Shown one piece after another: positions 57,689-57,726 of a DNA stretch of 64,000 bases; position 1 is the first letter of the stretch, and the number at the start of each line of letters is the position of its first letter. The notes beneath the pieces were generated by a model. That model saw nothing but the letters and a program-made list of their open reading frames with translations, was not told the DNA's origin and ran no database searches. Where the stretch lies: the NCBI RefSeq assembly GCF_963921235.1, contig NC_086097.1:15066001-15130000 (forward strand). Reading direction: 5' to 3'. The DNA comes from Mobula hypostoma. Its lineage: Eukaryota. The translations under genes were made by a program, and so were the position numbers.

Positions 57689-57726
57689 CAGTCGACGTTT
57701 CAGGCCGAGACCCTTCGTCAGGACTA
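57689..57726 (-). ncRNA. Minimal type-I hammerhead ribozyme motif (most intact copy)
   Basis: Minus strand reads UAGUC-CUGACGA-AGG[GUCUCGG]CCU-GAAA-CG-UC-GACUG. 5-bp stem I including one U.G pair, 3-bp stem II, palindromic ACGU in place of helix III. Confidence 0.72.

What the first reader, a model, noticed from the sequence alone, without database searches (positions are those of the whole stretch)
57689..57726. Minimal hammerhead ribozyme carried by a high-copy Penelope-like repeat
Seen: the minus strand reads UAGUC-CUGACGA-AGG-GUCUCGG-CCU-GAAA-CG-UC-GACUG. This is the full hammerhead catalytic core with paired stems I and II and helix III reduced to a palindromic ACGU. About 20 intact or decayed relatives occur in the window (e.g. 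near 21955, 22335, 41305, 42075, 42805, 51320, 51360, 52482, 56703, 57977, 61433, 63068, 63797). Known: Penelope-like elements carry minimal type-I hammerheads, proposed to act as dimers through the palindrome. Inference: this genome is densely seeded with such motifs. This copy is in sense orientation within the presumed CCDC85C intron, so the host pre-mRNA could be cleavable.
Basis: partly seen in the sequence, partly recalled or inferred. Interest (0 to 1): 0.75.

Follow-up and report, generated by a model that had tools for sequence, protein, structure and literature searches.

The report
Penelope hammerhead relic in CCDC85C intron
A complete minimal hammerhead ribozyme motif really sits in an intron of the CCDC85C gene of a cartilaginous fish (likely a ray), as the flipped stub of a tiny Penelope-like jumping-gene insertion; such motifs are already known, and this copy is predicted to be folded shut, so it likely does not cut the host RNA.

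Summary
The 38-mer is there as read and is one of only 2 matches in the window to a strict minimal-hammerhead descriptor; 200 shuffles gave none. The stem II register needs a one-base correction: an unpaired A follows A9, and the first pair is G·U. The motif belongs to the terminal repeat of an RT + GIY-YIG Penelope-like element with a Neptune-type cysteine linker. This copy is a 112-bp insertion between 14-bp target duplications: a 49-nt inverted hammerhead stub joined to a 64-nt forward tail. It lies in a CCDC85C intron, hammerhead in sense. Host cleavage is not supported: alone it folds into a rod that pairs the core with the cut site; in the pre-mRNA an antisense relative 250 nt upstream is predicted to pair 35 of its 38 bases. 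Published monomers of this class do not cleave. Only 2 of 20 aligned relatives are intact; decay concentrates at CpGs. A new member of a class described in 2014; this scan has noted it many times in this and other shark/ray genomes.

The parts
57689..57726 (-). Minimal type-I hammerhead motif: stem I 5' strand 57726-57722, CUGACGA 57721-57715, unpaired A 57714, stem II 57713-57702 (4 bp, CUCG loop), GAA 57701-57699, palindromic ACGU 57698-57695, C17 57694, stem I 3' strand 57693-57689
57678..57726 (-). Inverted 49-nt stub of the PLE terminal repeat; begins on the first base of stem I, ends 11 nt past it; 47 of 49 identical to the copy at 63006-63112(-)
   Evidence: contigs of run X4 continue with family sequence beyond 57678 and contigs of X14 beyond 57725 (table 7)
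57727..57790 (+). Forward 64-nt 3' end of the terminal repeat including the 35-nt optional tail; 62 of 64 identical to the copy at 51222-51356(-); 22 nt of the family sequence are missing between the two pieces
57665..57678 (+). Left copy of a 14-bp target-site duplication (its last A also fits the element)
57791..57804 (+). Right copy of the 14-bp target-site duplication
57865..58082 (+). Older relative on the opposite strand (decayed hammerhead 57977-58014); its complement in the pre-mRNA is predicted to pair with the hammerhead of the finding
63068..63105 (-). The only other fully intact motif (G-C at 10.1-11.1), also sense to CCDC85C, 5,379 nt away; one arm of the inverted pair 63006-63934
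63415..63934 (+). Longest young copy: C-terminus of the GIY-YIG endonuclease, pyrimidine-rich 3' UTR, hammerhead (63797-63837, damaged), tail
   Evidence: 82% over 51 aa to P0001
46180..46281 (-). CCDC85C third-last exon (AG...GT borders); no further upstream exon found up to 64000, so the finding lies in the intron above it
42264..42365 (-). CCDC85C second-last exon
39861..39950 (-). CCDC85C last coding exon to the stop codon

Best explanation
The motif is a complete minimal type-I hammerhead sequence carried in the terminal repeat of a very abundant Penelope-like retroelement, and this copy is a 112-bp truncated, partly inverted insertion in a CCDC85C intron that is likely inert. Shown: sequence, target duplication, two-piece inverted anatomy, link to an RT + GIY-YIG element, intronic sense position. 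Inferred for its origin: the element's endonuclease made a 14-nt staggered cut; one nick primed reverse transcription at the tail end (64 nt copied), the other primed 22 nt further 5' on the element RNA and copied through the uncut hammerhead to the 5' edge of stem I (49 nt); the two cDNAs were joined head to head. Inferred for the motif in full-length elements: two copies from tandem terminal repeats swap their stem I strands and pair ACGU with ACGU to make a slow, probably protein-assisted double hammerhead that processes the element's own transcript. Predicted for this copy: in the host pre-mRNA it folds into a rod in which G5-A6-C7-G8 pair with C15.2-G16.2-U16.1-C17, or pairs with the antisense relative transcribed 250 nt earlier; it would then decay by CpG mutation like its neighbours.
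For: Descriptor hit with 0 of 200 shuffles. Insertion anatomy and 14-bp duplication; 4 of 6 inverted pairs examined have 10-14-bp duplications. Summed contig depth 1.4e5-1.6e6 inside 57672-57795 against 2-624 in the flanking bins in 4 of 4 runs. Upstream ORF remnants match ray proteins with a YIDD motif, a C-x4-C-x2-C linker and a GIY-YIG motif. Rod probability 0.98 alone and about 0.9 with up to 200 nt of flank; the double hammerhead lies 16-19 kcal/mol above the best two-molecule fold in 3 of 3 pairings. Antisense neighbour duplex -67.7 kcal/mol, 35 of 38 bases paired at p>0.5; for the 63068 copy 38 of 38. Changes at CpG sites 54 of 158 against 47 of 477 elsewhere, p=1e-11. Sense copies are not depleted in the gene: 10 sense, 5 antisense, p=0.30. 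Literature: PMC4209133, PMC11167929, PMC8557442, PMC3846280, PMC2995048.
Against: No cleavage or expression was measured. Nearest-neighbour energies leave out the tertiary and Mg2+ stabilisation of the hammerhead core and all proteins, so they overstate how unfavourable the active form is. The Pfam GIY-YIG scores of the relatives are below the curated cut-off (best 21.6 against 22.6 bits) and Pfam found no RT in them; the RT rests on motifs. No compensatory covariation above shuffles in 20 copies. No empty site was among the 15 of 469 joints shown. The upstream CCDC85C exons lie outside the window and were not seen. Both fully intact motifs in the window are sense to the gene.
Confidence: 0.88

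Rival explanations
1. The copy does cut the CCDC85C pre-mRNA at some rate, as a double hammerhead with the intact sense copy at 63068 (5,379 nt upstream on the same RNA) or with element transcripts in trans, perhaps helped by the element's protein.
For: Both fully intact motifs in the window are on the pre-mRNA strand of one intron; the spacing is of the order of the ~3 kb between terminal repeats of full PLEs (PMC4209133); dimers and trimers of the class show low cleavage in vitro; the anole PLE hammerhead cleaves when its protein is added.
Against: Each copy has an antisense relative transcribed earlier and predicted to pair it almost fully (35 of 38 and 38 of 38 bases); own rod fold at p about 0.9; the stub lacks the downstream element RNA on its strand, where the anole protein's required RNA lies; G·U at 10.1-11.1; no depletion of sense copies; anole RNA-seq showed no reads ending at the cut site; introns cut by a slow hammerhead are still spliced (PMC2995048 passages citing Dye 2006 and Fong 2009).
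Confidence: 0.05
2. In this family the motif no longer works as a ribozyme even in active elements; it is kept as a structured RNA signal (a rod, overlapping a 3' splice site) that helps fix where templates or cDNAs end.
For: The young subfamily's rod fold is very stable; every copy spanning the motif was copied from RNA not cut at C17, or re-ligated; 5' ends of the copies at 51356, 51360, 57726 and 21990 fall on bases 1-3 of stem I; a pyrimidine tract + AG lies in the 5' strand of stem I in 7 of the 9 copies with 75% or more pyrimidines upstream or the young upstream flank, as described for D. virilis Penelope; hammerhead mutants did not affect insertion in vitro.
Against: All 11 fixed catalytic bases are the majority base in both old and young subfamilies while N7, the one free position, varies (C 7, A 7, U 5, G 1 of 20), which fits selection for catalysis in the source elements; C3/G8 mutant-rescue shows catalysis in the anole element. 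The count of 5' ends is small and had no null model here.
Confidence: 0.06
3. A chance look-alike of the hammerhead core inside an unrelated repeat.
For: No Rfam match; fold energy not unusual against shuffles, z -1.24; no covariation above shuffles.
Against: 0 of 200 shuffles meet the descriptor; it shows features that a loose pattern does not ask for (unpaired base after A9 in 20 of 20, G at 10.1 in 19 of 20, self-complementary 15.1-16.1) and sits exactly where PLE hammerheads sit, between the endonuclease ORF and the tail.
Confidence: 0.01

Closest known systems
Minimal hammerheads (min-HHR) of metazoan Penelope-like elements (Cervera & De la Pena 2014, PMC4209133; read: main text parts 1-2 of 4, one supplement search)
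   Same: Type I, short stem I, unpaired base after A9, no loop 3 with self-complementary 15.1-16.1, in the terminal repeat, mostly scattered as single truncated copies; thousands per genome reported in coelacanth and Xenopus, and within Neptune PLEs of fishes.
   Different: Stem II is only 4 bp (7-8 bp in Schistosoma families); this copy has G·U instead of G-C at 10.1-11.1; sharks and rays are not named in the parts read (supplement file 1 could not be searched).
Poseidon element of the green anole, PAc (Frangieh et al. 2024, PMC11167929; read: parts 1-2 of 4)
   Same: Hammerhead about 100 nt upstream of two alternative element ends that define a 30-40-nt tail; both DNA strands cut and extended; AT-rich targets; uncut RNA is the template.
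   Different: The ray element has the cysteine linker of Neptune/Nematis, not Poseidon; no protein or activity tested here; the young copies have ACG where PAc starts its ORF in the core.
EN+ PLE insertion anatomy (Craig et al. 2021, PMC8557442; Arkhipova et al. 2013, PMC3846280; read: passages)
   Same: 5' truncation, adjoining inverted truncated partner, optional 30-40-bp tail, 8-10-bp target duplications.
   Different: Here the inverted partner ends inside the repeat, so the two pieces do not overlap and fit one RNA primed twice (like L1 twin priming, recalled); duplications of 10-14 bp.
Non-LTR retrozymes (Li, Clavereau & Pollet, bioRxiv 10.64898/2026.07.22.740005; read: part 1 of 5 and passages)
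   Same: Type-I hammerheads derived from PLE terminal repeats; reported in the one chondrichthyan sampled.
   Different: Retrozymes are tandem arrays; no tandem array covers a hammerhead in 46300-64000.

Membership tests
min-HHR of metazoan PLEs | Catalytic core CUGANGA ... GAAA ... UH | tested here: met
min-HHR of metazoan PLEs | Type I, closed by a 4-5-bp stem I | tested here: met
   5 bp (first pair U·G), 6 with the flank
min-HHR of metazoan PLEs | Unpaired nucleotide between 9 and 10.1 | tested here: met
   A in 20 of 20 copies; register probabilities
min-HHR of metazoan PLEs | Helix III reduced to self-complementary 15.1-16.1, no loop | tested here: met
   ACGU
min-HHR of metazoan PLEs | Usual G10.1-C11.1 pair | tested here: inconclusive
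   G·U in this copy; G-C in 10, G·U in 9, unpaired in 1 of 20 copies; the C lies in a CpG
min-HHR of metazoan PLEs | Located in the terminal repeat of a PLE, 3' of the ORF | tested here: met
   (copies at 63415-63934, 52399-53169, 41339-41727)
min-HHR of metazoan PLEs | Compensatory covariation among families | tested here: inconclusive
   score 0.213 against 0.210 shuffled, 211 of 500 shuffles as high; copies are decaying descendants of few sources
min-HHR of metazoan PLEs | Self-cleavage as a dimer | not testable with these tools
   needs in vitro assay; energies only
EN+ Penelope-like element | One ORF with RT and C-terminal GIY-YIG endonuclease | tested here: met
   window fragments 54-82% identical to P0001-P0006, which carry YIDD and GIY-YIG motifs; Pfam GIY-YIG E 0.0003-0.048 in 5 of 9, all under the cut-off; no full ORF in the window
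EN+ Penelope-like element | Inverted 5'-truncated partner, optional 30-40-bp tail, short target duplication | tested here: met
   35-nt tail at one end only in 51222-51459 and 63006-63934; duplications of 10-14 bp in 4 of 6 pairs
Neptune clade | CX2-5CxxC linker between RT and endonuclease (shared with Nematis) | tested here: met
   present in 5 of 6 relatives scanned; definition from PMC8557442; the linker itself is not in the window
Neptune clade | RT phylogeny | not tested
   no reference RT set at hand
Non-LTR retrozyme | Tandem units each with a hammerhead | tested here: not met
   (46300-64000 only)
Rfam hammerhead families | Score at the family's gathering threshold | tested here: not met
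Domesticated intronic hammerheads of amniotes (features recalled) | Stable helix III for monomer activity and long-term conservation at one locus | tested here: not met
   no helix III loop; young insertion with a perfect target duplication, 96-97% like other copies; orthologous loci not examined

The most novel reading that the evidence does not exclude
Ray introns are so densely seeded with young intact minimal hammerheads that two sense copies on one pre-mRNA, here 57689 and 63068 in CCDC85C, assemble a double hammerhead (possibly when the element's protein is expressed) and cut host introns, with antisense neighbours acting as locks.
Probability: 0.04. Interest if true: 0.65.

Novelty: new member of a known kind. 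Interest (0 to 1): 0.15.

Why it matters
As found, it extends a known association (PLE terminal repeats carry minimal hammerheads) to a very abundant family in rays and gives a neat miniature of PLE integration: two primings on one uncut RNA, ending at the ribozyme's 5' edge. The role of PLE hammerheads is still open in the papers read, and a young high-copy family is good material for it, but this one copy does not settle it. If host introns were really cut by pairs of such relics, retroelement load would act directly on host pre-mRNA integrity; the evidence here points the other way.

Tried and rejected
No whole genome is held, so genome-wide counts could not be made here. Rfam: no match. 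Exact patterns in viral contigs and metagenome contigs: 0 each. Pfam on 11 window ORFs: no hit for the PLE or CCDC85C fragments, RT-type hits only for unrelated LINE pieces. Sequencing runs: no RNA holder listed; all 16 rows are contigs, so cut-site ends and expression could not be seen; no pile-up of ends was listed and no empty-site joint was among the 15 of 469 joints shown. Whether U or C is the family's majority base at 11.1 could not be read (40 of 66 rows shown). Covariation in 20 of the 21 hammerhead-covering copies (the weak 27513-27595 hit was left out): not above shuffles. Retrozyme array: rejected. Lunse et al. 2016 on dimer cleavage is not held and is known to me only through a review's passages (PMC6765202). 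Searches for a paper on these motifs in sharks or rays found only the 2026 retrozyme preprint's one chondrichthyan; subscription journals, Repbase/Dfam, supplement file 1 of PMC4209133 and the preprint's supplements were not seen and may list this family. Look-up of earlier findings by sequence gave nothing.

Full report
Observation. A strict minimal type-I descriptor written after Cervera and De la Pena 2014 finds two sites in the 64-kb window, C3 at 57721(-) and 63100(-), and none in 200 dinucleotide shuffles. Rfam gives nothing at gathering scores over the window or at E<=10 over 57600-57850. The stem II register needs a correction: an unpaired A follows A9 (A in 20 of 20 aligned copies), and stem II is GGGU/GCCU (pair probabilities 0.87-0.97) rather than AGG/CCU (0.02 for its A-U pair). 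An unpaired base there is a described trait of the class (PMC4209133). In this copy 10.1-11.1 is G·U; it is G-C in 10 and G·U in 9 of 20 copies.

The family in the window. I aligned 20 of the 21 (27513-27595 left out). Six keep all 11 fixed core bases, three of these keep the palindrome pair, two meet the whole descriptor. Each fixed core base is the majority base, while N7 varies (C 7, A 7, U 5, G 1). Changes fall at CpG sites (54 of 158) far more than elsewhere (47 of 477; p=1e-11), which hits G12, the ACGU palindrome and C17. Covariation is not above shuffles (0.213 against 0.210), as expected of decaying copies from few sources, so it neither supports nor refutes the fold. In 4 of 4 public runs from related animals the summed contig depth is 1.4e5-1.6e6 across 57672-57795 and 2-624 in the bins on either side: a very high-copy repeat with sharp edges. 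That figure is not a copy number.

What carries it. Longer copies run ORF end, pyrimidine-rich 3' UTR, hammerhead, about 60 nt, then one of two ends 35 nt apart. The ORF remnants (63415-63561, 52789-52971, 41500-41694) match ray proteins at 54-82%. P0001 carries a YIDD motif, a C-x4-C-x2-C linker and a GIY-YIG motif; Pfam GIY-YIG hits 5 of 9 such proteins, all under the curated cut-off, and Pfam finds no RT. The linker marks Neptune and Nematis, not Poseidon (PMC8557442 passages); of these, Neptune is the one listed for vertebrates (bioRxiv 10.64898/2026.07.22.740005 passages). I made no RT tree. Inverted truncated partners, an optional 30-40-bp tail and short target duplications are described PLE traits; 4 of 6 inverted pairs examined here have 10-14-bp duplications.

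This copy. It lies between two perfect 14-bp duplications (57665-57678, 57791-57804). It has two pieces: a 49-nt inverted stub (57726 to 57678) that starts on the first base of stem I, and a 64-nt forward 3' end with the tail (57727-57790); 22 nt of family sequence are missing between them, and the pieces are 47/49 and 62/64 identical to other young copies. Contigs from public runs continue with family sequence beyond both ends of the stub. The pieces do not overlap and are collinear on the element, which fits one RNA primed from both nicks of a staggered cut (inference; the anole PLE protein cuts and extends both strands, PMC11167929; L1 twin priming is recalled). The cDNA ran through the GUC site, so the template was uncut or re-ligated, as in the anole work.

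Host gene. Three exons on the minus strand (46281-46180, 42365-42264, 39950-39861, with AG/GT borders) match CCDC85C of rays and sharks, the middle one at 100% to Mobula and Hypanus proteins. None of five full-length homologues matched anything else in the window, so 57689 lies in the intron above the third-last exon, hammerhead in sense. The upstream exons were not seen.

Could it cut the pre-mRNA? Alone, it folds into a rod in which the core's GACG pairs with CGUC, burying the cut site (p 0.98; about 0.9 with up to 200 nt of flank). The double hammerhead lies 16-19 kcal/mol above the best two-molecule fold in all three pairings of the two intact copies; these energies leave out tertiary, Mg2+ and protein effects. 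In the pre-mRNA, the complement of the older copy at 57977-58014 is transcribed about 250 nt earlier and is predicted to pair 35 of 38 bases (-67.7 kcal/mol); the other intact copy, 5,379 nt away, is paired over 38 of 38 bases by its own inverted partner. Single motifs of the class showed no cleavage in vitro and dimers little; the anole motif cleaved only with the element's protein, and no RNA-seq reads ended at its cut site. Sense copies are not depleted in the gene (10 sense, 5 antisense, p=0.30; small, and pairs are not independent). Introns cut by a slow hammerhead are still spliced (PMC2995048 passages). Against my reading: both intact motifs are in sense on one intron, and nothing was measured.

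Novelty. The class, its dimer logic and its scattering as thousands of single truncated copies in vertebrates were described in 2014. My searches found no paper on this ray family, only hammerhead retrozymes in one chondrichthyan; repeat databases, subscription papers and two sets of supplements were not seen. This scan's own notes record the same kind of motif many times in this genome (64 notes fit the word hammerhead, 8 shown) and in other sharks; they are unchecked and are not counted as support. Verdict: real, correctly recognised, a new member of a known kind, most likely inert in the host gene. Interest 0.15.

Noticed in passing
window 57726, 51356, 51360, 21990: The 5' ends of four copies with crisp junctions fall on bases 1-3 of stem I; the partner at 21986(+) starts exactly at the cut site and shares the 5 stem I bases with its inverted mate. 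Cleavage end and microhomology explain it equally well. No null model here.
   Followed up: partly
window 63105-63125(-), 63777-63800(+), 56740-56760(-), 52519-52540(-), 43492-43512(-), 41150-41170(-), 40909-40930(-), 22370-22390(-): A pyrimidine tract followed by CAG or UAG forms the 5' strand of stem I, i.e. a 3'-splice-site-like sequence; a similar overlap is described for D. virilis Penelope. The copy at 57689 has lost the tract; the sense copy at 63068 keeps it and could be a cryptic acceptor.
   Followed up: partly
proteins P0005, P0007, P0019, P0028, P0032, P0033: Several ray gene models (for example neuromedin-U receptor 1, ILKAP, LAMP3, ABHD14A) contain pieces of this element's endonuclease, i.e. 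exonised or mis-annotated PLE fragments.
   Followed up: no
window 13137-13739(+): Proline-rich ORF end that looks like the last exon of cyclin K (name recalled, no Pfam hit), tail to tail with CCDC85C.
   Followed up: no
window 46180-46281(-): Database isoforms P0060 and P0061 lack this CCDC85C exon while P0049, P0052 and P0071 have it, so it may be a cassette exon.
   Followed up: no
window 63006-63934: A 470-bp, 86% identical inverted pair that would form long double-stranded RNA in the pre-mRNA, a likely A-to-I editing substrate.
   Followed up: no
window 55809-56129: Minisatellite of 24/36-bp units.
   Followed up: no
window 48100-48962, 49691-50086, 62000-62329: LINE reverse-transcriptase remnants unrelated to the Penelope family.
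   Followed up: no
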